Shown here piece by piece: positions 1,641 to 53,100 of a stretch of 64,000 nucleotides of DNA. The notes beneath the pieces were generated by a model, which did no database searches, had not been told where the DNA came from, and saw only the letters and a list, made by a program, of their open reading frames with translations. Source of the DNA: Squalus acanthias (Eukaryota); assembly GCA_030390025.1 (NCBI GenBank), contig JASTWF010000495.1, positions 248,001 to 312,000 on the forward strand. The letters are read 5' to 3'. The position numbers were made by a program, and so were the translations under genes. How positions within the stretch are numbered: the stretch's first letter is position 1; every line of letters begins with the position of its first letter.

Positions 1641-3064
1641 ATAATAGATTCAAAGAAATTCTAGCACATCGAGAGGCCACCCCGCCCATTGTACCCTTCT
1701 AGCTCAGTAACTGGGACCCTTTCACTCCAATCCCGGATTCCTCTTTTCCAAATGTCGATATTACAAGTTTGGGTCTGCTGTTAGATATTCTCTCGAGTAC
1801 AGCGGTGCTCATCTCTCCTGTAAGCGGTCAGCGCCTGACGTTTAGGACTGTGTCCTCGCTGCCCGATGTCTAATTATACAATAGTGTAGCCCCCAAGTGT
1901 AACATTAACACCCCCTTGTGGTCTGAACCAGATATCCGAGTCTTTTCTAGATGCCTCTCCAATCTTCCCACGGAGGTGCCGCAAAAACACTTGGGAAAAT
2001 GCAAATCGATAAACTGCATTGGTTCACAGTGAGTGAACATACAGAGCAACAGTTCCAATGGGACTCCCTTCAGTCAGTACAATGTGCCCACGTATTAACA
2101 TCGAATAACCAACATGCTATGCTGCCCTACAGCAGTGGGTGTCTTGCTTGAGTTAAACCAAATTACTTAATTCCTAACCCTCAGAGTCTCAGTAAGAGCC
2201 CTCATAGTTCATAGAATCATAGAATGTTACAGCAGAGAAGGAGGCCATTCGGCCCATCGTGCCTGTGCCGGCTCTGTGCAAGAGCTATTCATAGTCCCAC
2301 TCCCTGGCTCTGTCTCCATAGCCCAGCAAATCTTTCCCTTCAAGTATTGATCCAATTCCCTTTTGAAAGTTACTGTTGAATCTGTTTCCACCGCCCTTTC
2401 AGGCAGCACATTCCAGATCACAACAACTCGCTGCCTATTTTTTTCCCCGTGTCGCCTCTAGTTTTCTCTTTTTAAAAACCTGACTGCCAACCTGTGGGTC
2501 TTTGTACTCTTGTCTCCTGTCCATCAGGAAGTTGATGCTTGGTTCGTGATTCTTCCTCATGTCCAGGGGTTAGTTCGAGAGCAGGAAGCTCACAGCAGGT
2601 CAGTCAGCATCGATGGAGAGATCAGAAAAGTTAATGTTTTGGGGCTCCTGAAATGGCAGCTTTTCCGTTCTCTCCACCCCACTGATGCTGAGTGACAGGT
2701 TGTGTTTCCAGCATTTTCTGTTTCTTGTTTGAAGCTGCTGAATCAAGGCTGCTGCTGTGCCTCTCTCCATCCCTCCCCATTTTGAAACCAGCTTCATGTA
2801 AAGCTCCACAGGAAGGGCCATTCCAACACGGCATGGTGGGAATGTTTCTTTGGAGTCCCCAAGTTGAGATCGTGACTCTCCTCTTGTTCCCAATCATCAT
2901 GGGCAACAGATTTAATGTCTGACTCTTTAATGCACATTCTGTAAATGCCTATAGCCTTTCTTTTAAAATCTGTGTGGATTCACTTTCTTTTAGAATCCAG
3001 CACTTAAAACACAACTCTTTTCCAATTCTATCTGTGGAAAAATCGTCAAAAAGTGTTAAAATGG

Positions 3065-4030
3065 GACTTCGGAACAGGCCATTCGGCCCCTTGTGCCTGT
3101 TCCACCATTCTGTGAGATCATGGTTGATCTGGACCTCAACTCCATTTACCCGCCTTTTCACCATCTCCCCTGATATCCTTACCCAGAAACATCTGTCAAT
3201 CTCAGTCTTGAAAATTTCAATTGACCCCGAGCATCCACAGCCTTTTGGGGAGAGAGTTCCAGATTTCCACGACCCTTTGTGTGAAAAAGTTCTTCCTGAT
3301 TTCACTCCTGAATGGCCAAGCTGTAATTTTAAGATTTTGCTCCTTGTTTTGGTTTCTCTGTATCTACCCGAGCGAATCCTATTATCATTTTTAACACTTT
3401 GGTTGGATCCCCCCTCAAGCTTCTAAACTCAAGCGAATACAAACCGAGTTTCTGTAACCTGTCCCCATAATTGAACCCTTTAAATTCTGGTGAATCTGCG
3501 CTGCCCCCCCTCCAAAGCCCAGATATCCTTCCTGAGGTGCGGTGCCCAGAATCCATCCTATTCCCCGATCAGTGCTTTTATAATCTCTGCCCCAACAATC
3601 ACCCCTTGCAGAGCATTCCGTATCTTTGGAGAGGCTGGAGAAGCTGGGATTGTTATCATTAGAGCAGAGAAGGTTAAGGGGAGATTTGATAGAAGTGTTC
3701 AAAATGCTGAGGGGTTTTGAGAGTAAATAAGGAGAAACTGTTTCCACTGACAGGAGGGTCAGTAACCAGAGCTCACAGATTTCAGATAATTGGCAAAAGA
3801 ACCAGGGCGGAGATGAGAAGACAGTTTTTTAGGCAGAGAATTGTTGTGATCTGGAACGCACTGCCTGAAAGGTTGGTGGAAGCAGATTCAATAGTAACTT
3901 TCAAAAGGGATTCGGATAAATACTTGAAAAGGATAAACTTTCAGGGGAGTGGGACTAATTGGAGAGCTCTTTCAAAGAGCCAACACTGACACGATGGGCC
4001 GAATGGCCTCCTTCAGTGCGCCATGATCTC
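3065..4030. mobile_element. Two CR1 3' fragments in opposite orientations
   Basis: CR1 ORF2 C-terminal motifs (LGLYSLEFR; FFRQRIVVIWNALP) on opposite strands. Another CR1 tail lies at 2215-2460 (minus). Confidence 0.8.
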
Positions 4031-6710: not shown

Positions 6711-6711
6711 A

Positions 6712-8740
6712 TCATAAAATGATACAACATAGAAGGAGGCCATTGGGCCCATCGTGCCTGTGCCGGCTCTTTGGTCGAGCTATCCAGTTAATCCCACTGC
6801 CCTGCTCTTTCCCTATAGCCCTGCACATTTTCCCCTTCAAGTATTTATCCAATTCTCTTTTGAAAATTACTATTGAATCTGCTTCCACCGCCCTTTCAGG
6901 CAGTGCAGTCCAGATCACAACAACTCGCTGCTTAAAAAAACTGTCTTCTCATCTCCCCCCTGGTTCTTTTGCCAATTATCTGAAATCTGTTTGCTCTGGT
7001 TACTGACCCTCCTGTCAGTGGAAGCAGTTTCTCCTTATTTACTCTCACACCTCGATCAAATCTCCACTTAACCTTTTCTGCTCTAAGGAGAACAACCCCA
7101 GCTTCTCCAGTCTATCCCCGTAACTGAAGTCCCTCATCCCTGGTACCATTCCAGTAAATCTCTTCTGCCCCCTCTCCTAGGCCTTGACATCCTTCCTATA
7201 GTGTGGTGTATTGAACACAATACTCCAGCTGGGGCCTAACCTGTCTTTATAAAGGTTGAGCATAACTTCTTGCTTTTACATTCTATTCCTCTATTAATAA
7301 AGCCAAGGATCCCATCTGCTTTTTAACAGCCTTCTCAACTTGTCCTGCTCCCTTCAAAGATTTGTGTCCATGCACCTCATGTCTCTCTGTTCCTGCACCC
7401 CCTTTAATTTTGTACCATTTAGTTCATATTGCCTCTTCCTACCAAAATGTATCAACTCACACTTCTCTCTGTTAAATTTCATCTGCCATGTGTCTGTCCA
7501 TTTCACCAGTCTGTGTGTGCTCCTGAAGTCTGTTACTATCCTCCTCATTGTTCACTACATTTGAGTTTCGTGTCATCTGCAAACTTTGAAATTATCCCCT
7601 GTTTTGCCAAGTGTGAGGTGATACATTTTGGTAGGAAGAATGAGGAGAGACCATACACACTAAACAGTACAATTTTAAATGGAGTGCAAGAACAGAGAGA
7701 CCTGGGGGTACTTGCGCATAAATCTTTGAAGGTGGCAGGACAGGTTAACACAGCAGTTAATAAACCACATGGGATCCTGGGCTTCATAAATAGAGGCAGA
7801 GAGTACAAAAGCCAGGAAGTTCTGCCAAACCTGTATAAAACGCTAGTTCGGCCCCAGCTTGTGTCCAATTCTGAGCACCACACTTTTGGAAGGACATGAC
7901 GGCTTTGGAGACGGTGGAGAGATTTACTATAATGGTTCCAGGGATGAGGGATTACAGTTCCGGGGACAGACTAGAGAAGCTGGGTTGTTCTCCTTGGAGC
8001 AGAGAAGGCTAAGAGGAGATTTGACAGGTGTTTAAAAGCATAAAGGATTTAGATGGAGTAAATAAAGAGAAACAGTGCTGAGAGGTTGTTTCCCCTGGCT
8101 GGCGAGTCTAGAACTAGGGGGAATAGTCTCAGGATAAGGGGTCGGCCATTTAAGACTGAGATGAGGAGGAATTTCTTCACTCAGAGGGTTGTGAATCTTT
8201 GCAATTCTCTACTCCAATGGGCTGTGGATGCTGAGTCATTGAGTGTATTTAAGGCTGAGATAGATTTTTTGGACTCTAGGGGAATGAAGGGATCTGGGGA
8301 TCTGGCGGGGAAGTGGAGTTGAGATCGAAGATCAGCCATGATCTCATTGAATGGCGGAGCAGGCTCGAGGGGCCGTATGACCGACACCTGCTCCTAATTC
8401 TTATGTTCTTAGTTTCCAATGGCTGAAGGCTCGATCACGAGAGGGCACAGATTTAAGGTGATTGGCAAAAGAACCAGAGGCGACATGAGCAAAAACATTT
8501 TTACGTAACGTGTGGTTAGGATTTGGATTGCTCTGCCTGATAGGGTGGTGGATACAGATTCATTGTAGCCTTCAAAAGGGAACTGGATACATACTTGAGG
8601 GGAGAGAATTGCAGGGATATGGGGTACGAGCGGGGCAGTGGGACTAACTCGATTGCTCTTTGAAAGAGCCAGTGCAGACTCGATGGACCGAATGGCCTCC
8701 TTCTGTGATGTACTACTGAGATTCGATTCTATGAAACAAC
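6712..8740. mobile_element. Cluster of nested and inverted CR1 fragments
   Basis: [20 protein letters not shown] and FFTQRVVNLWNSL motifs; minus strand 6712-7600, plus strand 7605-8740. Confidence 0.88.
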
Positions 8741-9482
8741 CCCTCTGACAGTGCAGCGCTCCCTCCGTACTGCCCCTCTGACAGTGCAGCACTCCCTCAG
8801 TACTGCCCCTCTGACAGTGCAGCACTCCCTCAGTACTGCCCCTCTGACAGTGCAGCACCCCCTCAGTACAGCCCCTCTGACAGTGCAGCACCCCCTCAGT
8901 GTTGCCCCTCTGACAGTGCAGCACTCCCTCAGTACTGCCCCTCTGACAGTGCAGCACCCCCTCAGTACTGCCCCTCTGACAGTGCAGCACCCCCTCAGTA
9001 CTGCCCCTCTGACAGTGCAGCACCCCCTCAGTGTTGCCCCTCTGACAGTGCAGCACTCCCTCAGTACTGCCCCTCTGACAGTGCAGCACCCCCTCAGTAC
9101 TGCCCCTCTGACAGTGCAGCACTCCCTCAGTACTGCCCCTCTGACAGTGCAGCACTCCCTCAGTGTTGCCCCTCTGACAGTGCAGCACTCCCTCAGTACT
9201 GCCCCTCTGACAGTGCAGCACCCCCTCAGTACTGCCCCTCTGACAGTGCAGCACTCCCTCAGTACTGCCCCTCTGACAGTGCAGCACTCCCTCAGTGTTG
9301 CCCCTCTGACAGTGCAGCACTCCCTCAGTGTTGCCCCTCTGACAGTGCAGCACTCCCTCAGTACTGCCCCTCCGACAGTGCAGCGCTCCCTCAGTACTGC
9401 CCCTCCGACAGTGCAGCGCTCCCTCAGTACTGCCCCTCCGACAGTGCAGATCTCCCTCCGTACTGCCCCTCCGATAGTGCCA
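8740..9482 (+). repeat. 33-bp minisatellite (CCCCTCTGACAGTGCAGCACTCCCTCAGTACTG)n, ~22 units
   Basis: Tandem repeat with an 11-aa period in the ORF track; only ~5-6 units at the paralogous site 58360-58540. Confidence 0.97.
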
Positions 9483-11283
9483 ATAAAATGTCCACGAATG
9501 GCCTACTCCTGCTCCTATCTTCTATGTTTCTATGTTTAAGACGCTCCTTAAAACCCACCTCTTCGACCAAGCTTTTAGTCTCTGTCCTAAAATCTCCTGA
9601 TGTGGTTCGGTATACGCTCCTGTGAAGAACCTTGAGGCGTTTTACTACGTTAAAGGAGCTAAATAAATCCAAGTTGTTGCTGAGCTGCCTGGATTTGCCC
9701 AGTGCTGGGAGACAGACCTGGAATCGCTTCTCTATTTACTGTACAGCTGACTCTGTGCAACCCTCAGATTTGATGTACTTGTGCTGCACAATGTTTAACC
9801 AGGCTCCACAATTCAGGGTTTGCAGCACTGTCCCCAGATTTAGAAAGCATTCATCGAAAGATCAAATAAAGGAGTAATTGTGCTGGGGATTGAAAAACGT
9901 CTCGTACAAAGCTGCTGTAAAAGGGAGGTGAGAATGTGGGACTGTGTCATGGAGTTCGTGTATCTGGGAAGTAGAAGGCGGCCTGATGCGGGTTACAGTT
10001 GTTAGGTGTGGGGTTATAGAAAGGTCCTAAGTGCGATATATATGGCGCCGACTGAGTTTCGCAGAATGTGCAAAGACTCGAATCCATTGCACAAGGGAGC
10101 TGCTGCCCCTGGATCCGCAGTGACCCCATCGTGAACTGTCTCCAGGACCCCATTTGCTCTTTGCTCTCTGACCCTGAGGAGCAAACAAAAGCTCGAGGCG
10201 TGTGTCAGGACAGCAGTAATATCAGCAACCCGAGTTTTAAACATGGCCGGAAATTCTCTGCAGTATTAAATTGCATTGCTTAATTTTAGATCCTAGAATT
10301 GTCTTTCTGTATGAACCTAATTCTAACCCAGGAGACGATTTCCTCTGTGCATTGTGCTCAAGGAGATCCCAAACCCGCTCATAAGTGCGGATTTACCATC
10401 TCACTAGTGTGAATTTTCCTCTCAGTTGCCAAATATCTATTTCAACATAAATAAAAGTGAGCTGGTATATTTTAGTTTGAGGAATAAGGAGGCCACATAC
10501 TGCTTGCAAAATAAGAGTCTAAATGGGGTAGAGCAGCAAAAAGATCTAAAGTAAACACTCACAGATCAGTAAAAGTAGCAGCGCAAGTTAACAAAGCCAC
10601 ACAAAGTGCAAACAAAGCACTGGGATTCATTTCTAGAGGAATAGAATTCTAAAGCAGAGAGGTTATGTTAGACTTGTATTGAACCTTGGTTAGATCACAT
10701 TTAGAGTTCGGTGCACAGTTATGGTTCATATTATAAAAAGGAAGTAGAGGCATTGGAGAAAGGACAAAACAGATTCAAAAGGATGATCCCAGACCGGAGA
10801 GGTTATAACTCTCAGGAATGTCTGAGCAGACTGGGGCTCCTTTCTCTAGAAAGACTGAGAGGAGCCCTTTTAGAGGTCTTTAAAATTCTGAAGGGATTCG
10901 ATAGAGCAGACATGGAGAAGATGCTTCCAGCAGCAGATCTGGTGGGACAAGACCCCCAGTGTCGGAGACAGGATAAAACAGGAAGCTTCAACAATAATTG
11001 TAAAGGTGAGGAACTCTACTGAGAATCCCATCAGTCCAGGGTTTTGCTGAGGTGAGAGTCTAACCAGCTACTGGGAGCTGTTCAACATCTGCCATCAGGC
11101 TCCGTCTTTGATGCAGCCAGTTGATCAGAGCTTAACTTGTATGTAAACTTTGGCTGTGCTTGGTGAACCAATTTAGAGAGAGCTTTTAGACTGTATCCAC
11201 CCCATGCTGTACCTGACGTGGGAGTGTTTGATGGGACAGTGTAGAGGGAGCTATCTCATGATTGCCCATGATGTCCTCTCCAA

Positions 11284-12360
11284 TTATTTCTCTGATGGTC
11301 CCAACACTTGATAACCCCGATGATCGCTCCTCTTATGGCTTTTGACGCCTGTACCTGTTACAGGGAATAGACTGGTTTCAGAAAACAGAGGTTGCTTAAC
11401 CCCTGCCTTATCCCAACACCATTCCCTCAAATTGATTCTCACTGTCGAAGCTGTTGGGAGGCACGGTGCCTGATATAAAGAGAGGGGAGACTTGGAAGTG
11501 TATAAAGCAAGAGTTGGACATGGGGGCCATTGAATAGTGGGTCCTCATATTTGGAGAATGGGAGGGAGAATTCGTAAGGGGTAATTTTGGGAGTCTGTGC
11601 TCCCTGCCTGGAGTCTCCGTACATGGGAGCGGGTTCGGAGACAGGACTGATTGTACAACCTGCGTTCATGCCCAGTGAGACTGTACATCAGGAGCAGGGT
11701 GTGGTCATGTGACCTGGTAATACATGGATTGGGAGGGGCTTGGGCTGCTTTGTGACATCGTTCCTGGCTGCTGTTGTGATTGGCTTGTGGCTCCTTTGTG
11801 ATGTCACCTGGAGACAAGTTTACGCCCCTGGTTACACATCAGCGGGATGTCACTGTGGGAGGAGCTGGAGTCGGCAGCAGTCTGGCGAGTGAGTTTAGTC
11901 CCTGTAAATAGGGGCAAGGAAAGAAAAGAACAATTTAATAGTAAAGTCAGTAATTCAACTAAATGTCATTAATTGTAAATATATTGAACTGATCATAGTC
12001 ACAAAAACAATCCCACTGTATCCCAGTTACAGATTGTAAAATTAATCTTTTTTATATTACCAGTTTCTTGGAGTGAGCAATATCTCTGGAAGGTGGAGAG
12101 AGAGAAGTCGAATCATCACCACACTAACTGGGACTGGAGAAATGTCACTGGGTTCACAGAGCAGATCTGGTGGGACAAGACCTCCAGTGTCGATGACAGG
12201 ATAAAACGGGAAGCTTCAACAATGATTGGAAAGGTAAGGAACTCGACTGAGAATCCCATTAGTTCAGGATTCAGAGCTGAGAGTCTAACCAGATACTGGG
12301 AGCTGTGCAACATCTGTCATAAGGCTTGGACTTTGATGCGGCATTTGACCAGAGCTTACC
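11284..12360 (-). pseudogene. Two-exon remnant of an unidentified multi-copy gene
   Basis: Donor CTG|GTAATA at 12060 and a strong acceptor TTCTTTTCTTTCCTTGCCCCTATTTACAG at 11902 define a ~160-bp intron; the mostly open frame ends ...NYPLRILPPILQI*. Homologous pieces at 90-440, 10925-11140, 18525-19180, 19440-19800 and 61715-63150. Confidence 0.45.
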
Positions 12361-12825
12361 TCGTACATAAACCTTACCCGCACCTCACCTGGGAGTGTTT
12401 GACACCTACATGTAGAGGGATTTTTATTCTGTATTGATCCCATGCTGTGCCTGAGCTGGTGCACTTCATTGGGTAGTGTAAAGGGAGCTGTACACTGCAC
12501 TGAACACATTCTGTATCTGAGTTGGCTGTGCTTGGTGAACTAATTTAGAGGGAGCTTTTCTCTATCTAACCCGTGCTCTGCGAGTGTTTGATGGGACAGT
12601 GTAGAGGGAGCTTCACTCTGTATTCAACCCGTGCTGTACCTGCCCTGGGACAGTTTGATGTGACTGTGTAGCGGGATCTTTTCACTCTATCTAACCCGTG
12701 CTCTACCTGATCTGAGAGTTATTGATGCAACAATGTAGAGGGAGCTTTACTCTTTATCTAACCCGTGCTGTACCTTCCCTGGGATTGTTTGATAGGACAG
12801 TGTTAGAGGGTTATTTACAGTATAC

Positions 12826-25755: not shown

Positions 25756-25802
25756 TCAGGCATTGGCGGAGGAGCTGCAGGAGGATTCCCCTTGATTAGA
25801 AG
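25756..25802 (-). CDS. MHC-I exon 7, Ser-rich tail TSNQGESSCSSSANA-stop
   Basis: Acceptor TTAACAG, in frame with exon 6; the TGA is followed 1 nt later by donor G|GTATGA. Lies beyond the N gap, so linkage to the upstream exons depends on the scaffold join. Confidence 0.78.
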
Positions 25803-28800
25803 CTGTTAATGGAAGGACAGGCATTAATAAACTGTTCATTGTCATAGAGAGAGAGAGAGCGAGACAGAGAGAAATAGAGAGACAGAAGGAGGGAGACAGA
25901 GCCAGAAAAAGAGAGACAGAGCCAGTCACAGAGTGAGAGACAGAGCCAGAAACAGAGANNNNNNNNNNNNNNNNNNNNNNNNNNNNNNNNNNNNNNNNNN
26001 NNNNNNNNNNNNNNNNNNNNNNNNNNNNNNNNNNNNNNNNNNNNNNNNNNNNNNNNNNNNNNNNNNNNNNNNNNNNNNNNNNNNNNNNNNNNNNNNNNNN
26101 NNNNNNNNNNNNNNNNNNNNNNNNNNNNNNNNNNNNNNNNNNNNNNNNNNNNNNNNNNNAGACAGTCACAGAGAGAGAGAGAGAGAGACAGAGACAGAGA
26201 GCCAGACAGACAGAGGGAGACACAGAGTAATAAACTGTTCAGTGTATCAGACACAGAATGAGCAACGATTCAGTGTTCCAGAGATGCAGAGGATGTTTGA
26301 TGATCAGCTTACTGGTTGTAGGATTGTAGCCGCTCTTCCCTCCCACTGTAAAACAAGGAACGCTCAGTGAGTGACGAGACACCGACAGTCAGAGAAGAGA
26401 GAGGATCACCCCCCAACGTGGCTCTGCCCACCCAGAGCCCCAGCCCCGCCCCCTCCCCCAGATCCTCTCGCCCTCACCCAGAGCCCCTCCCCCCTAACCC
26501 AGAGCCCCAGCCCCTCACCCTGGGCCCCTTCCCCTCACCCAGAGCCCCTCCCCCTCACCCAGAGACCCGCCCCCTCACCCAGATCCTCTCGCCCTCACCC
26601 AGAGCCCCGCCGCCTCACCCAGAGCCCCTCCCCCACACCCAGAGCCCCTACACCTGGGCCCTTCACCCTCCAGCCCAGTACACTTCCACCCACCACCGGG
26701 CCATCCCCCTGACACTGGGCCCCTGCCCCCCCCTTAAAGGACCCCGCCACCTCCAACCTGGCCCCTCCTCCCAATCCAGGCCCCTCCCTCCCTCCCCCAG
26801 TGGGGACGCGACCATTTTGTCTCCATTTCCTACCTTTCTTTCTGTAGATGACGACAGCTACAATGGTGAGAGCGATGAGCAGCCCGAGGACCCCAATCAC
26901 ACCAACAATAGCAGGGACCATGGACTCAGACTTCGGTACTGAGAGAGAGAGAGAGTGAGAGAATCAGAGACAGACAGGGATACACCGTGTCCTCATACTG
27001 TAATATCCCAAAATACACCGTGGACTGTAATATCCCAGGATCCACCGTGGACAGTAATATCCCAGGATCCACCGTGGACTGTAATATCCCAGGATCCACC
27101 GTGGACTGTAATATCCCAGGATCCACCGTGGACTGTAATATCCCAGGATACACCGTGGACTGTAATATCCCAGGATCCACCGTGGACTGTAATATCCCAG
27201 GATCCACCGTGGACTGTAATATCCCAGGATCCACCGTGGACTGTAATATCCCAGGATCCACCGTGGACTGTAATATCCCAGGATCCACCGTGGACTGTAA
27301 TATCCCAGGATCCACCGTGGACTGTAATATCCCAGGATCCACCGTGGACTGTAATATCCCAGGATCCACCGTGGACTGTAATATCCCAGGATCCACCGTG
27401 GACTGTAATATCCCAGGATCCACCGTGGACTGTAATATCCCAGGATCCACCGTGGACTGTAATATCCCAGGATCCACCGTGGACTGTAATATCCCAGGAT
27501 CCACCGTGGACTGTAATATCCCAGGATCCACCGTGGACTGTAATATCCCAGGATCCACCGTGGACTGTAATATCCCAGGATCCACCGTGGACTGTAATAT
27601 CCCAGGATCCACCGTGGACTGTAATATCCCAGGATCCACCGTGGACTGTAATATCCCAGGATCCACCGTGGACTGTAATATCCCAGGATCCACCGTGGAC
27701 TGTAATATCCCAGGATCCACCGTGGACTGTAATATCCCAGGATACAGCGGCTCGATAAATGCTGTGATGACATGAACATGTTGAAAGTTAATAATTCTTC
27801 CGCTCTCTCTGTAGCCTGACTCCAACCTGTCCCGGGCTGGGAGCTCAGCACTGACCCTCCCTCCTGTGGGCTTGTCCCGGGCTGGGAGATCAGCACTGAC
27901 CCTTCCTCCAGTGGGTCTGTCCCGGGCTGGGAGCTCAGCACTGACCCTCCCTCCTGTGGGCCTGTCCCGAGGCTGGGAGCTCAGCACTGACCCTTCCTCC
28001 AGTGGGTCTGTCCCAGGCTGGGAGCTCAGCACTGACCCTTCCTCCAGTGGGTCTGTCCCGGGCTGGGAGCTCAGCACTGACCCTCCCTCCTGTGGGTCTG
28101 TCCCAGGCTGGGAGCTCAGCACTGACCCTCCCTCCTGTGGGTCTGTCCCGGGCTGGGAGCTCAGCACTGACCCTCCCTCCTGTGGGTCTGTCCCGGGCTG
28201 GGAGCTCAGCATTGACCCTCCCCCTTGTGGGTCTGTCCCAGGCTGGGTTCCCTCTAACAGTGAGAGAGAGTCTTACCATAAATCACCATCACCATCTCCT
28301 CCAGCCCACTGTGCTCCACCTGACAGGAATACTCAGCCTGGTCCTTGGGGTCAAACTCCACCCATTTCTGGATCTGGTAGGTGCTGTCGTGATTGGGCAG
28401 GATCCCACTGGACTGAGTCTCATCGACCAACATTCCATCTCTCCACAGAGTCACCTCGATGGCTTGAGGGTAAAACCCGGTGACGACACAGGAGAGCCGG
28501 TTAGCTTCCCCCGGACGGATAAAGGACACGATGGGTGGGACTGAGAGAGAAAGAAAGAGGATTTAGTATAGGAACCGCGATATCGAGAGTCACTGCACCT
28601 CACTCGCCCACTCTCAGTCCCCCCTCACTCTCAGTCCCCCCCTCACTCTCAGTCCCCCCCTCACTCTCAGTCCCCCCCTCACTCTCAGTCCCCCCCCTCA
28701 CTCTCAGTCCCCCCCCTCACTCTCAGTCCCCCCCCTCACTCTCAGTCCCCCCCTCACTCTCAGTCCCCCCCTCACTCTCAGTCCCCCCCTCACTCTCAGT

Positions 28801-31800
28801 CCCCCCCTCACTCTCAGTCCCCCCCTCACTCTCAGTCCCCCCCTCACTCTCAGTCCCCCCCCTCACTCTCAGTCCCCCCCCTCACTCTCAGTCCCCCCCT
28901 CACTCTCAGTCCCCCCCTCACTCGCCCACTCTCAGTCCCCCCTCACTCGCCCACTCTCAGTCCCCCCTCACTCGCCCACTCTCAGTCCCCCCTCACTCGC
29001 CCACACTCAGTCCCCCCTCACTCGCCCACACTCAGTCCCCCCTCACTCGCCCACTCTCAGTCCCCCCTCACTCGCCCACTCTCAGTCCCCCCTCACTCGC
29101 CCACTCTCAGTCCCCCCTCACTCGCCCACTCTCAGTCCCCCCTCACTCGCCCACTCTCAGTCCCCCCTCACTCGCCCACTCTCAGTCCCCCCTCACTCGC
29201 CCACTCTCAGTCCCCCCTCACTCGCCCACTCTCAGTCCCCCCTCACTCGCCCACTCTCGGTCCCCCCCTCACTCGCCCACTCTCGGTCCCCCCTCACTCG
29301 CCCACTCTCAGTCCCCCCTCACTCGCCCACTCTCAGTCCCCCCTCACTCGCCCACTCTCAGTCCCCCCTCACTCGCCCACTCTCAGTCCCCCCTCACTCG
29401 CCCACTCTCAGTCCCCCCTCACTCGCCCACTCTCAGTCCCCCCTCACTCGCCCACTCTCAGTCCCCCCTCACTCGCCCACTCTCAGTCCCCCCTCACTCG
29501 CCCACTCTCAGTCCCCCCTCACTCGCCCACTCTCAGTCCCCCCTCACTCGCCCACTCTCAGTCCCCCCTCACTCGCCCACTCTCAGTCCCCCCTCACTCG
29601 CCCACTCTCAGTCCCCCCTCACTCGCCCACTCTCAGTCCCCCCTCACTCACCCACTCTCAGTCCCCCCTCACTCACCCACTCTCAGTCCCCCCTCACTCA
29701 CCCACTCTCAGTCCCCCCTCACTCACCCACTCTCAGTCCCCCCTCACTCACCCACTCTCAGTCCCCCCTCACTCACCCACTCTCAGTCCCCCCTCACTCA
29801 CCCACTCTCAGTCCCCCCTCACTCACCCACTCTCAGTCCCCCCCTCACTCACCCACTCTCAGTCCCCCCCTCACTCACCCACTCTCAGTCCCCCCCTCAC
29901 TCACCCACTCTCAGTCCCCCCTCACTCACCCACTCTCAGTCCCCCCCTCACTCACCCACTCTCAGTCCCCCCTCACTCACCCACTCTCAGTCCCCCCTCA
30001 CTCACCCACTCTCAGTCCCCCCTCACTCACCCACTCTCAGTCCCCCCCTCACTCACCCACTCTCAGTCCCCCCTCACTCACCCACTCTCAGTCCCCCCTC
30101 ACTCACCCACTCTCAGTCCCCCCTCACTCACCCACTCTCAGTCCCCCCTCACTCACCCACTCTCAGTCCCCCCTCACTCACCCACTCTCAGTCCCCCCCT
30201 CACTCACCCACTCTCAGTCCCCCCTCACTCACCCACTCTCAGTCCCCCCTCACTCACCCACTCTCAGTCCCCCCTCACTCACCCACTCTCAGTCCCCCCT
30301 CACTCACCCACTCTCAGTCCCCCCTCACTCCCCACTCTCAGTCCCCCCTCACTCACCCACTCTCAGTCCCCCCTCACTCACCCACTCTCAGTCCCCCCTC
30401 ACTCACCCACTCTCAGTCCCCCTCACTCACCCACTCTCAGTCCCCCCTCACTCACCCACTCTCAGTCCCCCCTCACTCACCCACTCTCAGTCCCCCCCTC
30501 ACTCACCCACTCTCAGTCCCCCCTCACTCACCCACTCTCAGTCCCCCCTCACTCACCCACTCTCAGTCCCCCCCTCACTCACCCACTCTCAGTCCCCCCC
30601 TCACTCACCCACTCTCAGTCCCCCCTCACTCACCCACTCTCAGTCCCCCCTCACTCACCCACTCTCAGTCCCCCCTCACTCACCCACTCTCAGTCCCCCC
30701 TCACTCACCCACTCTCAGTCCCCCCTCACTCACCCACTCAGTCCCCCCTCACTCACCCACTCTCAGTCCCCCCTCACTCACCCACTCTCAGTCCCCCCTC
30801 ACTCACCCACTCTCAGTCCCCCCTCACTCACCCACTCTCAGTCCCCCCTCACTCACCCACTCTCAGTCCCCCCTCACTCACCCACTCTCAGTCCCCCCTC
30901 ACTCACCCACTCTCAGTCCCCCCCTCACTCACCCACTCTCAGTCCCCCCTCACTCACCCACTCTCAGTCCCCCCTCACTCACCCACTCTCAGTTCCCGCT
31001 GCCCGTACTGCAGGTATTTCCTCAGCCACTCGATACACTCCTCCTCCAGGTAATTCTTCCACCGCAGTTTGCCGCCTGTGTCCTGGTCCCACTTGTTCTT
31101 GATGCTCTGTGCCCATGGGACTGGAGTGACCCACACCAGGTGATCCTTGTCGAAGCTGATGTAGTCTCGCCCGTCCCAGCCGAACTGGACAAACCCGCTC
31201 GTGGTCCCATCGTCCCTCAGGTCACAGCCAATCATCACCTGGTACGTGTGGATCCCTGTCAATCAAACACACACACAGCCAATCAGACCCAGTCCCACCG
31301 GGAGACCCGCCCCACTGTCCCTCAGCTGGTCAGACACACCTGGGAAGCAGGCGGTATTTAAAGGAACCCCCAACCCTGGTTCCAGATCTGTGCATTTAAA
31401 GGACCCCCGGAACCCGAGCTATGAACTAAAAACACCGAAAACCAATCTGCATTCTAAAAACTAAAGACATTGATGTCTAATAAAAGGAACCAAAGAACAT
31501 GGTATATAAATTTGAAGGACCCCCCAATTCCTGATCTAAATATTTTCGGGGCCTCCACCCCCACCCCTCGGTTCCTGATCTGTGTATTTAAAGGACTGAT
31601 GTGAGGCCGCTCCCCATTGGTCGCTGCCCCTGGTCTGGGAGATGGAGTGCCTCTTTTCCCGGGGACCCTGGCTCCCTGAGCTCGCTCCACTCCACAGCTC
31701 GCTCCCCATTCCCACCCGGCCACCCTCAACCCAGAGAAAGAGCCCGACCGTGGCGGGAGGGCGAGGACTCACCTCCCGACTGAATGGTCCGGGTCATGAG

Positions 31801-34120
31801 TTGCTGAATATAGGCCTTCTGATACACCTCCCGTTCCCGCACCAGCTGAAATTTCCGCTCCCAGGACTCGGGCCCCTCACTCTCCACCATCCACTGCTCC
31901 CGCGGGATCAACTCCTTCCGATCGCTGTCGTACGTAACAAACTGGACCTCGTCCACATACCCGACACCCACAAACTGCGGCAGACCGGGAATTGGAGTTA
32001 TGGTGGTAAGGAAATACCGGAGAGAGTGAGAGCCTGAAACACAGAGAGAGAGAGAGATATCAGGGCATGAACCCCAAAACACCAACCCCACCCACACACA
32101 CACAGACATAAGGGTATGAACCCCAAAACACCAAACAAAAACGCACACGGACATCAGGGCATGAACCCCAAAACACCAACCCCACACTCAGTGGACTCAG
32201 GGCATGAACCCCAAAACACCAACCCCCACACTCAGTGTGACATCAGGGCATGAACCCCAAAACACCAACCCCCACACTCAGTGTGACATCAGGGCATGAA
32301 CCCCAAAACACCAACCCCCACACTCAGTGTGACATCTGGGCATGAACCCCAAAACACCAACCCCCACACTCAGTGTGACATCAGGGCATGAACCCCAAAA
32401 CACCAATCCCACCCCCGAAACCAACAGACAGAGAGAGATAGACATTCAGGGCCCTCAACACTCCTGATGAGTCCCGTGTCCTACAATCTCCCTCCCCGAT
32501 CCCTGATCAGGGACTCCGAGGCCCACCCGTTCCTCCTCCAGACCCCCGCGACCCAACCCCATCCCTTACTGTAACCTGGAGCACTGACCTGCGCGGCCTC
32601 CTCCTGAGGTGCCATCTCCAGTGCACTGGGGTCCGAGGCCAAGAATCCGCGGGCTTCTCAGACCTCAGTGTTTGAGCGCGGGTTGTAACACAGTGTTGGG
32701 GGCGGGGGGCTCCCGAGGTTAACCCCAGACACTTGTATATCTCAGTTTGCTGACGACACTAAGTCAGGTGACCCAGTAAATTGTGTAGACGGGGGCAGCA
32801 AGTTGCAAAGGGTCATTGAGAGAGTAAGTGAGCGGGCAAAACTGTGGCAGATGGACCTCAATGTGGGCAACTGAGAGCTCATCCACTTTGGAGCTAAGAA
32901 AGTCAATCTGAATATATTCCACATGGTGGGAAACTCTGACCTGTGGAGGAGCACATGGAGAAATCATTAAAAGCCAGTGGACAGGTACAATAAGGATTGG
33001 GAAAAGCTCATGGAATGTTGGTCTTTATCTCGAGGGCTGGAATACAAGGGCTGGAAGTTCTGTTACAGCTGGACCACTCTCTGGTTAGACCCTATCTGGA
33101 GTAACTGTGTTCAGATCTGGGCATCGCACCTCAGGAAGGAGAAACTGGCCTTGGAGGGAATCCAGCGCAGATTCACCAGAGTGATACCGGGGCTTAGAGG
33201 GTTGAATTATGAGGACAGGTTGCATAGACTCGGCTTGTATTCCCTTGAGTATAGAAGATTGAGGGGGAATCTAATTGAGGTGTTTAAAATGTTACAAGGA
33301 TTTGATAGAATCAATCTGGGGAAACTAGTGCCTCTGGTGGGTGAATCAGGAACGAGGGGACAGAATCTTAAAATTAGAGCCAGACCGCTCAGGAGCGGAA
33401 TCAGGAAGCACTTTTACACACAAAGGGTAGTGGAAATCTGGAACTGTCTGCCCCAAAAGGTGTGGATGCTGGGGCTCAACTGGAGCTTTCAGACCTAAGG
33501 TCGATGGATTTATGTTAGGTCAGGATATCAGGAATATGGAGCAAAGGCAGGGAAATGGAGTTAAGATACAAATCAACCAGGATCGAATTGAATGGCGGAA
33601 CAGACTCGAGGGGCTGAATGCTCTACTCCTGTTCCTGTGGACCTCTCTCTCCACTCTCCAGCCCACTGCCCCTGTCCCTCACTCCCCGCCATGGTCTCTC
33701 TCTCTCCAGCCCCAGTACCCAGCCTGGCACTGAGACCCTCTCACACCCCATTACTCACTGACCGAGGGTTAATGCCCAGTACCCAGCCTGGCACTGAGAC
33801 CCATTCACACCCCATTACCCACTGACCGAGGGTTAATGCCAGTACCCAGCCTGGCACTGCCCCTCTCACACCCCATTACTCACTGACCGAGGGTTAATGC
33901 CCAGTACCCAGCCTGGCACTGAGACCCTCTCACACCCCATTACTCACTGACCGAGGGTTAATGCCCAGTACCCAGCCTGGCACTGCCCCTCTCACACCCC
34001 ATTACTCACTGACCGAGGGTTAATGCCCAGTACCCAGCCTGGCACTGCCCCTCTCACACCCCATTACTCACCTGCAGAGACCCCTCCACACAGAAGGGCC
34101 AGCACTATCAGTCCAATCAT
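25756..34120 (-). CDS. MHC class I heavy (alpha) chain, probably non-classical; spliced CDS join(34072-34120, 31773-32033, 30983-31255, 28277-28540, 26834-26938, 26313-26345, 25756-25802), 343 aa
   Basis: Exon lengths 49+261+273+264+105+33+47 = 1032 nt, in frame, with GT-AG phase-1 introns. Leader, a1 (GSHSLRYF), a2 (C..C, DGRDYI, KNKW, YLEEECIEWLRKYL), a3 Ig-C1 (LSCVVTGFYP...YSCQVEH), TM and cytoplasmic exons follow canonical class I organisation. Lineage (UAA/UBA/UDA etc.) not assigned. Confidence 0.95.
25959..26159. other. Assembly gap (~200 N) inside a GA-rich microsatellite in MHC intron 6
   Basis: Run of N flanked by (GA/GACA)n. Confidence 0.99.
26313..26345 (-). CDS. MHC-I exon 6, 33-nt cytoplasmic exon (VGGKSGYNPTT)
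   Basis: Acceptor TTTTACAG, donor GTAAGC; same 33-nt length and conserved Tyr as exon 6 of mammalian class I genes. Confidence 0.85.
26410..26675 (+). repeat. Imperfect ~19-20-bp C-rich repeat (CCCTCACCCAGAGCCCCTC) in intron 5
   Basis: Degenerate tandem units visible directly. Confidence 0.8.
26834..26938 (-). CDS. MHC-I exon 5, connecting peptide and transmembrane segment
   Basis: VPKSESMVPAIVGVIGVLGLLIALTIVAVVIYRKK; acceptor CTCTCAG, donor AAG|GTAGGA. Confidence 0.92.
26975..27745 (+). repeat. 27-bp minisatellite (CCAGGATCCACCGTGGACTGTAATATC)n, ~28 near-identical units, intron 4
   Basis: Tandem repeat; each unit has a BamHI site and the interrupted palindrome TCCAC-C-GTGGA. Confidence 0.98.
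27825..28250 (+). repeat. 45-bp minisatellite (CTGTCCCGGGCTGGGAGCTCAGCACTGACCCTCCCTCCTGTGGGT)n, ~9 units, intron 4
   Basis: Tandem repeat with a 15-aa period in the ORF track. Confidence 0.95.
28277..28540 (-). CDS. MHC-I exon 4, alpha-3 Ig C1 domain
   Basis: VPPIVSF...LSCVVTGFYPQAIEVTLWRDG...ILPNHDSTYQ...YSCQVEHSGL; pyrimidine-rich acceptor, donor ATG|GTAAGA. Confidence 0.96.
28598..30993 (+). repeat. 24-bp minisatellite (CCCCCTCACTCACCCACTCTCAGT)n filling intron 3
   Basis: Three sub-domains: ~15-16-bp units (28615-28920), ACTCGC variant (28920-29640), ACTCAC variant (29640-30993). The last unit overlaps the exon 3 donor. Confidence 0.98.
30983..31255 (-). CDS. MHC-I exon 3, alpha-2 domain
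   Basis: GIHTYQVMIGCD...GWDGRDYISFDK...KNKWD...YLEEECIEWLRKYLQYGQRELRV; both cysteines present; acceptor GACAG, donor TGG|GTGAGT. Confidence 0.96.
31773..32033 (-). CDS. MHC-I exon 2, alpha-1 domain
   Basis: GSHSLRYFLTTITPIPGLPQFVGVGYVDEVQFVTYDSD...PESWERK...LMTRTIQSG; acceptor GTTTCAG, donor GAG|GTGAGT. Confidence 0.96.
32056..32415 (+). repeat. ~45-bp minisatellite near the intron 1 acceptor
   Basis: (CATCAGGGCATGAACCCCAAAACACCAACCCCCACACTCAGTGTGA)n, ~8 units. Confidence 0.93.
32740..33640 (+). mobile_element. Degenerate CR1 3' portion in MHC intron 1, antisense to the gene
   Basis: FADDTK; LEGIQRRFTRVIPGLRGLNYEDRL; HFYTQRVVEIWNCLP. Confidence 0.9.
33705..34071 (+). repeat. ~60-bp minisatellite abutting the exon 1 donor, ~6 units
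   Basis: (CCCTCTCACACCCCATTACTCACTGACCGAGGGTTAATGCCCAGTACCCAGCCTGGCACTG)n. Confidence 0.95.
34072..34120 (-). CDS. MHC-I exon 1 coding part, signal peptide MIGLIVLALLCGGVSA
   Basis: ATG in context ACAATG (A at -3), hydrophobic core, donor CAG|GTGAGT; the final G joins GC of exon 2 to give GSHSLRYF. Confidence 0.9.
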
Positions 34121-36977: not shown

Positions 36978-38792
36978 CCCCAGTAATAAACTGTAGACCC
37001 AGTAATAAACCGTATACCCAGTAATATACCGTACACCCAGAAATGAACCGTACACCCAGTAATAAACCGTACACCCAGAAATATACCGTACACCCAGTAA
37101 TAAACCGTACACCCAGTAATATACCGTACACCCAGTAATATACCGTACACCCAGTAATAAACCGTACACCCAGAAATAAACCGTACACCCAGAAATATAC
37201 CGTACACCCAGTAATATACCGTACACCCAGTAATAAACTGTACACCCAGTAATAAACCGTACACCCAGAAATAAACCGTACACCCAGTAACAAACCGTAC
37301 ACCCAGTAATATACCGTACACCAGAAATATACCGTACACCCAGTAATAAACCGTACACCCAGTAATAAACCGTACACCAGAAATATACCGTACACCCAGT
37401 AATATACCGTACACCCAGAAATAAACCGTACACCCAGTAATATACCGTACACCCAGTAATAAACCGTACACCCAGTAATAAACCGTACACTCAGAAATAT
37501 ACCGTACACCCAGTAATAAACCGTACACCCAGTAATATACCATACACCCAGTAATGTACCGTACACCCAGTAATATACCGTACACCCAGTAATGTACCGT
37601 ACACCCAGTAATGTACCGTACACCCAGTAATATACCGTACACCCAGTAATGTACCATACACCCAGTAATATACCGTACACCCAGTAATGTACCATACACC
37701 CAGTAATATACCGTACACCCAGCAATATACCGTACACCCAGAAATAAACCGTACACCCAGTAATAAACCGTACACCAGTAATAAACCGTACACCCAGTAA
37801 TATACCGTACACCCAGAAATAAACCGTACACCCAGTAATATACCGTATACCCAGAAATAAACCGTACACCCAGAAATAAACCGTACACCAGAAATATACC
37901 GTACACCCAGAAATATACCGTACACCCAGTAATAAACCGTACACCCAGTAATAAACCGTACACCCAGTAATATACCGTACACCCAGAAATAAACCGTACA
38001 CCCAGTAATAAACCATACACCCAGTAATAAACCGTACACCCAGTAACAAACAATACATCAAGTAATAAACCGCACACCCAGAAATAAACCGTACACCCAG
38101 AAATAAACCGTACACCAGTAATAAACCGCACACCCAGAAATAAACCGCACACCCAGTAATATACCGTACACCCAGAAATAAACCGTACACCCAGTAATAA
38201 ACCGTACACCCAGTAATAAACCGTACACCCAGTAATAAACCGTACACCCAGAAATAAACCGTACACCCAGTAATAAACCGTACACCCAGAAATAAACCGT
38301 ACACCCAGTAATAAACCATACACCCAGAAATAAACCGTACACCCAGTAATAAACCGTACAACCAGTAATAAACCGTACCCCCAGAAATAAACCGTACACC
38401 CAGTAATAAACCGTACACCCAGAAATAAACCGTACACCCAGAAATATACCGCACACCCAGTAATAAACCGTACCCCCAGAAATAAACCATACACCCAGTA
38501 ATAAACCGTACACCCAGAAATAAACCGTACACCCAGAAATAAACCGTACACCCAGTAATAAACCGTACACCCAGGAATATACCGTACACCCAGTAATATA
38601 CCGTACATCCAGTAATATACCGTACACCCAGTATTATACCGTACACCCAGTAATATACCGTACACCCAGTAATATACCGTACACCCAGAAATATACCGTA
38701 CATCCAGTAATATACCGTACACCCAGTAATATACCGTACACCCAGTAATATACCGTACACCCAGTAATATGCCATACACCCAGTAATAAACA
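36978..38792 (+). repeat. ~19-bp minisatellite (CCGTACACCCAGTAATAAA)n, ~95 units with interspersed variants
   Basis: Tandem repeat with variants AGAAATAAA, AGTAATATA and AGTAATGTA. Confidence 0.98.
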
Positions 38793-50191: not shown

Positions 50192-53100
50192 GATTCAGAC
50201 GCACAGTGTGTGCGAAGGGGTTTAATTTATCCTGCTGTTTGTTGTGACATCAGCAAATCCACCCTGGGGAGACCACTTGAGTTGTACTGTGTGTGAAATG
50301 AAATTTGACACATCTGGTTAGCTGCCACACCCGTGAATTGACACCAGAGAGAAACTGTTGAATGGACTGGATTCACAACTGTCCCTGTTTCACTGAGATT
50401 CATAGAGTGAAACCAACTAAAAGCACTTAAGGTTTGCAGTAATTTGATGTTTAGAATGGCTTCCTCTGCTGCAGTAACTGTGCCAATGAAGTTGATTATA
50501 TCACTGCTCACAATCTCACGGCACAATATCGCACTTTGTCCCTTTCACTTTCTGTGAAGTACAGATTAAGTGTCGGCTAAAAACATTGTATTTCCACAAG
50601 GGAGAGTGTAATTATAGGAACAGGAGTCGGCCACTTAGCCCCTCGAGCTGTTCCGCCATTCAGTGAGATCCTGGCTGATCTGTGACCTAACTCCATATAC
50701 CCGCCTTTGCCCATATCCCTTAATACATTTAGTTAACAAAACTATGTCAATCTCAGATTTAAATTTAACAATTGAACGAGAATTAATAGCCATTTGCGGA
50801 AGAGAGTTCCAAACTTCTACCACGCTTTGTGTTTAGAATTATTTCCTAACTTCGCTCCTGAAAGGCCTCCCCAAGCAGTGGAAATGGTTTCTCTCTATCT
50901 ACCCTATCAGCAACGCTCCCTCAGTCCCGACAGCCTGGGACCGGTTTCTTCAGTGATAAATTTTGCGTGTGTGTGAAACTGAGACTGGGCCGCACACCCA
51001 AAAAATTAGGCGGAACATTGCCTCTCGCTTCCCCTTAATATCTTGAAAACTTCGATCAAATCACCTCTGAACCTTCTAAATTCCAGAAATACAACCCGGG
51101 TTTGTGAAATCTCTCCTCGTAATTTAACCCTTAGAGACCAGGAATCATTCTGGTCAATCTACGCTGCACTCCCTCCAAGGCCAATATATCCTTCCTAAGG
51201 TGTGGTGCCCAGAACTGCTCCCAGAACCCCAGGTGTGGTCTAACCAGGGCTCTGTATAGCTGCAGCATAACTTCTACCCTAATAATAGATTCAAAGAAAT
51301 TCTAGTACATCGGGAGGCCACCCTTCTAGCTCAGTAACTGGGACCCTTTCACTCCAATCCCGTATTCCTCTTTTCCAAATGTCGATATTACAAGTTTGGG
51401 TCTGCTGTTCGATATTCTCTCGAGTACAGCGGTGCTCATCTCTCCTGTAAGCGGTCAGCGCCTTACGTTTAGGACTGTGTCCTCGCTGCCCGATGTCTAA
51501 TTATACAATAGTGTAGCCCCCAAGTGTAACATTAACACCCCCTTGTGGTCTGAACCAGATATCCGAGTCTTTTGTAGATGCCTCTCCAATCTTCCCACAG
51601 AGGTGCTGCAAGAACACTTGGGAAAATGCAAATCGATAAACTGCATTGGTTCACAGTGAGCGAACATACAGAGCAACAGTTCCAATGGGACTCCCTTCAA
51701 TCAGTGCAATGTGCCCACGTATTAACATCGAATAACCAACATGCTATGCTGCCCTACAGCAGTGGGTGTCTTGCTTGAGTTAAACCAAATTACTTAATTC
51801 CTAACCCTCAGAGTCTCAGTAAGAGCCCTCATAGTTCATAGAATCATAGAATGTTACAGCAGAGAAGGAGGCCATTCGGCCCATCGTGCCTGTGCCGGCT
51901 CTGTGCAAGAGCTATTCATAGTCCCACTCCCTGGCTCTGTCTCCACAGCCCAGCAAATCTTTCCCTTCAAGTATTGATCCAATTCCCTTTTGAAAGTTAC
52001 TATTGAATCTGTTTCCACCGCCCTTTCAGGCAGCACATTCCAGATCACAACAACTCGCTGTGTATTTTTTTTCCCCTTGTCGCCTCTAGTTTTCCCTTTT
52101 TAAAAACCTGACTGCCAACCTGTGGGTCTTTGTACTCTTGTCTCCTGTCCATCAGGAAGTTGATGCTTGGTTCGTGATTCTTCCTCATGTCCAGGGGTGA
52201 GTTCGAGAGCAGGAAGCTCACAGCAGGTCAGTCAGCATCGATGGAGAGATCAGAAAAGTTAATGTTTTGGAGCTCCTGAAATGGCAGCTTTTCCGTTCTC
52301 TCCACCCCACTGATGCTGAGTGACAGGTTGTGTTTCCAGCATTTTCTGTTTCTTGTTTGAAGCTGCTGAATCAAGGCTGCTGCTGTGCCTCTCTCCATCC
52401 CTCCCCATTTTGAAACCAGCTTCATGTAAAGCTCCACAGGAAGGGCCATTCCAACACGGCATGGTGGGAATGTTTCTTTGGAGTCCCCAAGTTGAGATCG
52501 TGACTCTCCTCTTGTTCCCAATCATCATGGGCAACAGATTTAATGTCTGACTCTTTAATGTATTTTCTGTAAATACCTATAGCCTTTCTTTTAAAATCTG
52601 TGTGGATTCACTTTCTTTTAGAATCCAGCACTTAAAACACAACTCTTTTCCAATCGTATCTGTGGAAAAATCATCAAAAAGTGTTAAAATGGGACTTTGG
52701 AACAGGCCATTCGGCCCCTTGTGCCTGTTCCACCATTCTGTGAGATCATGGTTGATCTGGACCTCAACTCCATTTACCCACCTTTTCACCATCTCCCCTG
52801 ATATCCTTACCCAGAAACATCTGTCAATCTCAGTCTTGGAAATTTCAATTGACCCCCAGCAACCACAGCCTTTTGGGGAGAGAGTTCCAGATTTCCACAA
52901 CCCTTTGTGTGAAAAAGTTCTTCCTGATTTCACTCCTGAATGGCCAAGCTGTAATTTTAAGATTTTGCTCCTTGTTTTGGTTTCTCTGTATCTACCCGAG
53001 CGAATCCTATTATCATTTTTAACACTTTGGTTGATCCCCCCTCAAGCTTCTAAACTCGGGCGAATACAAACCGAGTTTCTGTAACCTGTCCCCATAATTG

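What the first reader, a model, noticed from the sequence alone, without database searches (positions are those of the whole stretch)
28598..30993. Intron 3 is a 2.4-kb tandem amplification of the alpha-2 exon's own 5' splice site, with an in-frame stop after the true donor
Seen: the sense unit ACTGAGAGTGG|GTGAGTGAGGGGG equals the last 11 nt of exon 3 plus the first 13 nt of the intron. About 55 perfect copies of the donor follow the real one at ~24-nt spacing. Further in, ~30 units carry GC instead of GT, and the units nearest the acceptor have lost the donor. Reading past the first donor gives GGT GAG TGA, so any downstream donor yields a stop (NMD target or a leader-a1-a2-only product). Inference: a decoy U1-site array whose length could tune productive splicing, with decay polarised toward the acceptor.
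Basis: partly seen in the sequence, partly recalled or inferred. Interest (0 to 1): 0.75.

Follow-up and report, generated by a model that had tools for sequence, protein, structure and literature searches.

The report
Splice-donor minisatellite in shark MHC intron
One intron of a shark-type immune gene (MHC class I) is almost entirely made of about 100 tandem copies of the preceding exon's end and its splice signal; repeats of this kind are already known from human and lancelet genes, the one transcript junction that could be read uses the genuine signal, and the extra copies are likely tolerated passengers rather than a regulator.

Summary
Intron 3 (2,442 nt) of an intact 7-exon shark-type nonclassical MHC class I gene is 98% a 100-unit minisatellite. 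The unit is 25 nt, not 24: 15 exon bases plus 10 intron bases. 52 exact donor copies follow the real one, then 29 GC units, 16 short units and one last full GC unit. The "polarised decay" is two mutations spread in blocks. The GE-stop read-through also follows intron 1's donor. The one junction readable in RNA-like contigs joins the authentic exon 3 end to exon 4; contigs drop rare forms. DNA contigs of two organisms also enter the array. This is a known kind: human F7 and ABCA7 VNTRs, amphioxus "mirages". In F7 only the first donor is used whatever the copy number; in ABCA7 the second donor leaks about 2%, independent of length. This scan has noted the same arrangement on other DNA (shark GIPC1, chimaera and camelid genes). 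Verdict: new member of a known kind, likely tolerated. Open: a length effect on exon skipping, and whether paralogues share the array.

The parts
34072..34120 (-). Exon 1 (leader), donor CAG|GTGAGT; read-through also gives Gly-Glu-stop
   Evidence: aligns with shark class I leaders
33711..34071 (-). Intron 1 minisatellite, 61-64 nt x about 5.7, starting exactly at the donor; copies repeat the intron side of the donor without the exon's last G
31773..32033 (-). Exon 2 (alpha-1)
   Evidence: Pfam MHC_I 3e-19; boundaries
30983..31255 (-). Exon 3 (alpha-2), 273 nt, phase 1 at both ends; its last 15 nt are the exon part of the repeat unit
   Evidence: Pfam MHC_I 4.4e-26
30975..30985 (-). Authentic donor TGG|GTGAGT with the TGA stop at intron +6..+8
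   Evidence: junction to exon 4 seen in an RNA-like contig
29638..30997 (-). GT block: 54 units of about 25 nt, including the real one; 52 downstream exact donors (first G at 30957 to 29651); one unit lacks the T
28911..29637 (-). GC block: 29 units with +2 T>C
28619..28910 (-). 16 short units (17-19 nt); a 7-nt deletion between two short direct repeats removes the donor
   Evidence: origin by microhomology is inferred from the unit sequence
28598..28618 (-). Boundary unit: full GC unit ending after intron base 10
28541..28597 (-). Unique 57-nt intron tail with the pyrimidine tract and AG acceptor; with one 10-nt donor segment it gives a 67-nt single-unit intron (inferred ancestor)
28277..28540 (-). 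Exon 4 (alpha-3)
   Evidence: Pfam C1-set 2.9e-17; spanned end to end by an RNA-like contig
26834..26938 (-). Exon 5 (transmembrane)
26313..26345 (-). Exon 6 (cytoplasmic)
25756..25802 (-). Exon 7, coding part to the stop codon

Best explanation
Intron 3 of an intact shark-type nonclassical MHC class I gene is a 100-unit minisatellite whose 25-nt unit copies the end of the alpha-2 exon and its splice donor; it likely grew from one local duplication by slippage or unequal exchange, and the spliceosome likely takes the first donor almost every time, so the copies are likely tolerated passengers. Shown: gene structure, unit register, block structure, the stop, and one RNA-like contig joining the authentic exon 3 end to exon 4. 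Inferred: (1) a 25-nt duplication (15 exon + 10 intron nt, one A>G change) in an intron of about 67 nt started the array; (2) a +2 T>C change and a 7-nt deletion each arose once and spread locally, while the boundary unit escaped homogenisation; (3) the most upstream of identical donors wins, as measured for human F7; (4) a small leak to the second or third donor, as in ABCA7, CBS and the 6-16 gene, would carry the TGA 281 nt or more upstream of the exon 4/5 junction and be removed by nonsense-mediated decay. The stop is a safety net that makes the array cheap to carry, not a designed switch.
For: Register and tail. Blocks: 5 class changes against a shuffled mean of 60, minimum 43 in 5,000 shuffles. 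Open 343-codon frame with no internal stop. The exon end predates the array: RELRVV in 14 of 32 shark homologues, across several orders. Run X6, record 28 (165 nt, depth 67.4): 135 letters beyond exon 4, whose shown 30 letters equal window 30984-31013, including the exon-only bases that no repeat unit has; no cover of the intron in either RNA-like run. Repeat-rich context: 35% of the gene span is tandem repeat even without this array, against 10% outside the gene; the intron 1 array also starts at its donor; intron 5 has 9 donor-like sites at -8 kcal/mol or better. Precedents: F7, ABCA7, amphioxus mirages.
Against: The RNA evidence is one junction in 1 of 2 RNA-like runs. It has 30 letters on the exon 4 side, one short of the tool's 31-letter bar. 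Contigs drop rare forms, steady-state RNA hides NMD targets, and 6 loose-end rows and 307 records were not shown. X6's allele differs from the window at one exon 4 base and is not itself shown to carry the array. A second branch at the same acceptor (X6 record 27, depth 18.8) is not the authentic junction and would fit exon 3 skipping. Both variants that spread widely destroy or weaken the donor, which selection against downstream donors would also predict (two events, too few to test). With 52 exact copies the array exceeds the 4-25 copies of the human cases listed in PMC1557585. No shark splicing system was tested.
Confidence: 0.72

Rival explanations
1. ABCA7-like modifier: the first donor still wins, but the long G-rich, U1-binding array changes exon 3 or exon 4 inclusion, or overall mRNA level, in proportion to its length. 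Both skips are in frame, so they would give alpha-2-less or alpha-3-less class I chains.
For: In ABCA7 a 25-bp donor-containing VNTR raises skipping of the next exon 3.2-fold and lowers expression with length. Skipping exon 3 or exon 4 keeps the frame here (252 and 255 aa). X6 record 27 (33 nt, depth 18.8 against 67.4) matches exon 4 plus two letters that fit an upstream exon ending in AG, as exon 2 does and no repeat donor does. The array holds 45 G-quadruplex-like motifs.
Against: The two further letters of record 27 were not shown, so a paralogue's exon 3 ending in AG or an acceptor variant fits as well; it is one short contig in one run. No length polymorphism was measured. F7 copy number (8-12) did not change splicing.
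Confidence: 0.18
2. One reading: a selected decoy array in which use of +25n donors diverts transcripts to NMD or to a soluble leader-alpha1-alpha2 chain (196 codons), with donor loss near the acceptor selected to limit proximal competition.
For: 52 exact donors with the same U1 pairing as the real one; both widely spread variants hit the donor; downstream donors are used to some extent in CBS, 6-16 and ABCA7.
Against: No repeat-donor junction among the 4 contigs laid from X6, and the authentic junction contig runs 135 letters without a break where such a branch would start. The stop also follows intron 1's donor. The unit nearest the acceptor is full length. ABCA7 one-unit retention is 2 +/- 1% and independent of length.
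Confidence: 0.06
3. The array came from a pre-existing high-copy 25-nt satellite family that was copied into the junction through chance similarity, not from the exon itself.
For: Look-alike units are very abundant in both DNA runs: summed depth 176,878 against 76.8 on exon 4 in X3, and 29,740 against 59 in X1; most contigs are 90-95% alike (122 of 151 and 105 of 138).
Against: The unit matches the protein-constrained exon end at 14 of 15 bases and ends in register at the unique tail; the encoded junction is conserved across sharks; no other copy lies in the 64 kb. Shown variants differ at the third base of the Val codon, as arrays of paralogous class I genes might. Summed contig depth is not a copy number.
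Confidence: 0.04

Closest known systems
Human F7 intron 7 37-bp VNTR (Borensztajn et al. 2006, PMC1557585; parts 1, 4 and 5 of 6 and further passages read)
   Same: First unit spans the exon-intron boundary; identical pseudo-donors follow; the donor is nearly the same (TGG/gtgggt there, TGG/GTGAGT here); G runs in the unit; only the upstream donor seen in use.
   Different: 4-8 pseudo-sites there, 52 exact ones here; unit mostly intronic there (4+33 nt), 15+10 here; here blocks of GC and donor-less units and a stop at +6; F7 was tested with 50 constructs, this locus with none.
Human ABCA7 intron 18 25-bp VNTR (De Roeck et al. 2018, PMC5954066; passages read)
   Same: 25-bp unit carrying the donor, kilobase-long alleles, one-unit retention gives a premature stop and NMD.
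   Different: The ABCA7 unit begins at the GT; its stop comes from a frameshift. Length there is shown to affect exon 19 skipping and expression but not one-unit retention; nothing of the kind is measured here.
Amphioxus 'mirage' minisatellites (Ebner et al. 2010, PMC3087553; passages read)
   Same: [quoted passage not shown]
   Different: 3-6 units of about 150 bp in the globin genes against 100 units of 25 nt; length instability shown there, untested here.
CBS intron 13, 6-16 (IFI6) intron 2, LMNB2 and PDGF minisatellites (known here only from the Introduction of PMC1557585; CBS VNTR also in passages of PMC2630376)
   Same: Donor reiterated 10-25 times in the following intron.
   Different: CBS and 6-16 use the next two pseudo-sites as well; LMNB2 and PDGF only the authentic one. 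Which pattern holds here at low level is open.
Shark nonclassical class I, UBA lineage (PMC12562908 and PMC10751288; passages read)
   Same: UAA-like sequence, 74% identical to O19480 of Heterodontus; in a 99/98 clade of 25 rows, all lacking Tyr59 and Thr143; lies in a roughly 50-kb tandem segmental duplication, as a multicopy family would.
   Different: The window's protein alone among 29 rows lacks Asn86. That O19480 and O19479 are UBA reference clones is recalled, not from a call.

Membership tests
Junction-spanning minisatellite (F7-type VNTR, amphioxus mirage) | Tandem unit whose first copy spans the exon-intron boundary | tested here: met
   15 exon + 10 intron nt, 100 units
Junction-spanning minisatellite (F7-type VNTR, amphioxus mirage) | Many but not all units keep an intact splice signal | tested here: met
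   52 GT, 30 GC and 17 without the donor among 99 copies
Junction-spanning minisatellite (F7-type VNTR, amphioxus mirage) | Block-wise homogenisation with a deviant boundary unit | tested here: met
   5 class changes against 60 shuffled; last unit differs from its 16 neighbours
Junction-spanning minisatellite (F7-type VNTR, amphioxus mirage) | mRNA made mainly from the authentic (most upstream) donor | tested here: inconclusive
   One contig junction in 1 of 2 RNA-like runs uses it and none listed uses a copy, but it is one letter short of the tool's bridging bar and contigs drop rare forms
Junction-spanning minisatellite (F7-type VNTR, amphioxus mirage) | Copy number varies between alleles | not testable with these tools
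   No genome held; short contigs show only that 3 of 3 listed DNA contigs crossing the boundary unit from the tail enter a further unit
Splicing-regulating tandem repeat (ABCA7-type) | Repeat length correlates with splicing or expression | not testable with these tools
   No paired DNA and RNA of the same individuals; contigs give no levels
Splicing-regulating tandem repeat (ABCA7-type) | Alternative junctions near the repeat exist | tested here: inconclusive
   A minor 33-nt branch at the exon 4 acceptor with unseen letters
MHC class I heavy chain | Leader, alpha-1, alpha-2, Ig C1 alpha-3, transmembrane and tail in one frame | tested here: met
Classical class Ia (shark UAA) | Conserved peptide-anchoring residues including Tyr59 and Thr143 | tested here: not met
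   Ser at 59, Ile at 143; Asn86 also lost; four other rows keep both residues
Shark UBA nonclassical lineage | Groups with UBA reference sequences, apart from classical UAA | tested here: inconclusive
   99/98 clade with O19480 and O19479, midpoint root only; their UBA label is recalled
Shark UBA nonclassical lineage | Multicopy cluster flanked by c4 and rxrb (PMC10751288) | not testable with these tools
   No genome held; the window shows a roughly 50-kb tandem duplication, no flanking genes were identified

The most novel reading that the evidence does not exclude
The donor array is a shared trait of a multicopy shark class Ib family: intron 3 of many paralogues carries its own exon-matched array (thousands of look-alike units in the genome), and array length sets, gene by gene and allele by allele, how often the alpha-2 exon is skipped. 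A mutable repeat would then tune the ratio of full-length to alpha-2-less class I chains across an immune gene cluster.
Probability: 0.1. Interest if true: 0.6.

Novelty: new member of a known kind. Interest (0 to 1): 0.18.

Why it matters
As it stands it is a large natural example (52 identical donors) of a known arrangement, useful for asking whether 'the first donor wins' holds at high copy number and in a cartilaginous fish. It is also a practical warning for assembling and amplifying shark class I genes, whose introns here are filled with minisatellites. It would matter more if array length were shown to tune isoforms or expression across a multicopy immune gene family.

Tried and rejected
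No whole genome is held, so paralogues and the location of the high-copy look-alike units could not be mapped. A scan of metagenome contigs with the alpha-2 exon gave 3 short matches of 11-17 residues, judged spurious and not used. Look-ups of earlier scan notes by sequence and by relatives gave nothing; the 8 same-genome notes shown were other matters. RNA folding of the exon end plus five units shows no structure that could single out the first donor (z +1.98, empty centroid). Rejected: 'graded decay toward the acceptor' (two spread mutations, full boundary unit); 'the stop is special' (same at intron 1); pseudogene (open frame, spliced contigs); pure assembly artefact (DNA contigs of two organisms enter the array); a candidate leader exon near 32570-32615 (the true leader is 34120-34072). 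Paper searches (listings only) found no description of this array; the J Immunol papers on shark class I lineages (Bartl 1997, Almeida 2020 and 2021) were not read and no supplements were opened, so a mention there cannot be excluded.
Full report
Gene. The minus strand carries a seven-exon MHC class I gene: exons at 34120-34072, 32033-31773, 31255-30983, 28540-28277, 26938-26834, 26345-26313 and 25802-25756. All introns are GT-AG and phase 1, and the frame is 343 codons with no internal stop. Exons 2 and 3 match Pfam MHC_I and exon 4 matches C1-set. All 32 proteins found with the alpha-2 exon at E <= 1e-20 (of 65 candidates) carry shark names, and the best solved relative is 6LUP. A tree of 29 rows (P0001, P0002, P0025 and P0032 left out as fused or partial models) puts the window in a 99/98 clade of 25 rows that all lack Tyr59 and Thr143, apart from four rows that keep them. 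So it is a nonclassical, UAA-like chain, probably of the multicopy UBA lineage; the UBA label of the nearest references is recalled. The window is about 1.3 periods of a 50-kb tandem duplication (558-8920 against 50192-58539, 97%).

Array. Intron 3 is 2,442 nt, of which 2,385 are array. There are 100 units: 54 GT-type including the real one (one has lost the T), 29 GC-type, 16 short units of 17-19 nt and a final full GC unit. The modal unit is 25 nt. The exon's last 15 bases match the copy at 14 positions, and the last unit ends after intron base 10, where a unique 57-nt tail with the pyrimidine tract begins. The unit is therefore 15 exon + 10 intron bases, and removing 99 units leaves a 67-nt intron (the ancestor is inferred). 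The direction is exon to array, since the junction peptide RELRVV is found in 14 of 32 homologues and close variants in most others. No other copy of the unit lies in the window.

Decay and stop. The unit classes change only 5 times along the array (shuffled mean 60, minimum 43). The apparent gradient is thus two mutations, a +2 T>C change and a 7-nt deletion between short direct repeats, each spread to neighbours. Both do hit the donor, which is compatible with selection but is two events. U1 duplex energies are -11.2 kcal/mol for GT units, -6.8 for GC units and -5.9 for the best site left in short units. The stop is the TGA at +6..+8; intron 1's donor reads the same Gly-Glu-stop, so this is common for a phase-1 GTGAGT donor. 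Use of the second donor would leave the stop 17 nt before the new junction and 281 nt before the next, an NMD substrate by the usual vertebrate rule (recalled).

Context. Tandem repeats cover 35% of the gene span even without this array, against 10% of the rest of the window (using 16 of the TRF rows). The intron 1 array starts exactly at its donor, the first intron 4 array 29 nt after its donor, and intron 5 has 9 donor-like sites at -8 kcal/mol or better, most in its 20-nt array. Repeats at or near donors are the rule in this gene.

Public runs. Twenty holders were listed, all as contigs, none on record as RNA. Four were laid on 28255-28645. X6 and X11 cover exon 4 and none of the intron, with loose ends at the exon borders, as spliced RNA would. 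In X6, record 25 spans exon 4 with one difference. Record 28 continues from the acceptor into the authentic exon 3 end, including bases that no repeat unit has, for 135 letters without a break. It has 30 letters on the exon 4 side, one short of the tool's bar, and overlaps record 25 by those 30. No junction from a repeat unit is listed among X6's 4 contigs; for X11 no junction letters at this acceptor were shown. Contigs drop rare forms, 6 loose-end rows and 307 records were cut, and X6's allele is not itself shown to bear the array, so this shows that the first donor is used, not that the others are silent. Against the simple reading, X6 record 27 (33 nt, depth 18.8 against 67.4) leaves the acceptor by another route. 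Its first two letters fit an upstream exon ending in AG, as exon 2 does, and fit no repeat donor; its next two letters were not shown. In DNA, 3 of 3 listed contigs that cross the boundary unit from the unique tail go on into another unit (X3 records 19 and 20, with 4 and 8 other letters; X1 record 8), in two coded organisms. The array end is therefore not private to this assembly. Look-alike units are very deep in both DNA runs (176,878 against 76.8 on the exon in X3; 29,740 against 59 in X1) and mostly 90-95% alike. That is no copy number, but it points to many related arrays, perhaps in paralogues.

Known kind. In human F7 the first 37-bp unit spans the exon 7 junction, only the most upstream donor is used, and constructs with 8-12 units splice alike; the paper lists CBS and 6-16 (two further donors used) and LMNB2 and PDGF (none) as other cases (PMC1557585; parts 1, 4, 5 of 6 and passages). 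In ABCA7 a 25-bp VNTR holding the donor gives one-unit retention with a premature stop at 2 +/- 1%, sensitive to NMD block but not to length, while exon 19 skipping and expression do follow length (PMC5954066; passages). Amphioxus 'mirages' show the same anatomy, block homogenisation, deviant boundary units and undisturbed splicing (PMC3087553; passages). A genome-wide human catalogue lists 9,537 splicing-associated repeats (PMC10078293; listing and passages). Earlier notes of this scan report the same arrangement in shark GIPC1, chimaera DCTN1 and MRPS18C, camelid MICALL2 and worm genes (unchecked AI notes, and the source of the mirage lead). I had reached the F7 comparison before seeing them.

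Verdict. A real and large donor-spanning minisatellite, most likely tolerated because the first donor wins and any leak meets a stop (0.72). An ABCA7-like length effect on skipping or expression is the live alternative (0.18). New member of a known kind; interest 0.18.

Noticed in passing
window 33711-34071: A 61-64 nt minisatellite starts exactly at the intron 1 donor and repeats its intron side five more times without the exon's last G; read-through also gives Gly-Glu-stop. A second, weaker donor-repeating array in the same gene.
   Followed up: partly
window 28512-28542 (run X6, record 27): A minor 33-nt branch at the exon 4 acceptor that is not the authentic junction; it would fit in-frame skipping of the alpha-2 exon or a paralogue's exon end. 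Letters not shown.
   Followed up: partly
window 28591-28632 (runs X1, X3): Look-alike 25-nt units reach summed depths 500 to 2,300 times that of exon 4; shown variants differ at the third base of the Val codon before the donor. Possibly arrays of paralogous class I genes, or a dispersed family.
   Followed up: partly
window 558-12807 and 50192-63598: Tandem segmental duplication with a period of about 50 kb at 97% identity; the class I gene lies inside the unit, so neighbouring copies are likely outside the window.
   Followed up: no
window 31773-31830: The protein lacks the Asn86 glycosylation site (Ile instead), alone among 29 aligned shark class I rows.
   Followed up: no
window 26442-26649: The 20-nt G-rich array in intron 5 holds several GG|GTGAGG sites that pair with U1 slightly better (-9.8) than the real intron 5 donor (-9.2).
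   Followed up: partly
window 26997-27743 and 27827-28247: Intron 4 is mostly two further minisatellites (27 nt x 27.7, 99% matches; 45 nt x 9.3); the 45-nt array starts 29 nt after the donor.
   Followed up: no
window 36979-38791: A 19-nt minisatellite of about 96 copies lies 2.9 kb upstream of the start codon.
   Followed up: no
window 25960-26159: A run of about 200 N in intron 6, inside a CT-rich microsatellite.
   Followed up: no
window 34194 and 34369: A CCAAT motif and a TGACG motif lie within 250 nt upstream of the start codon; no ISRE-like or TATA-like match to the simple patterns tried.
   Followed up: no
window 28277-28504 (runs X6, X11): RNA-like contigs of more diverged class I paralogues (33 differences over 228 bases in X6) are present beside the window-like form.
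   Followed up: no
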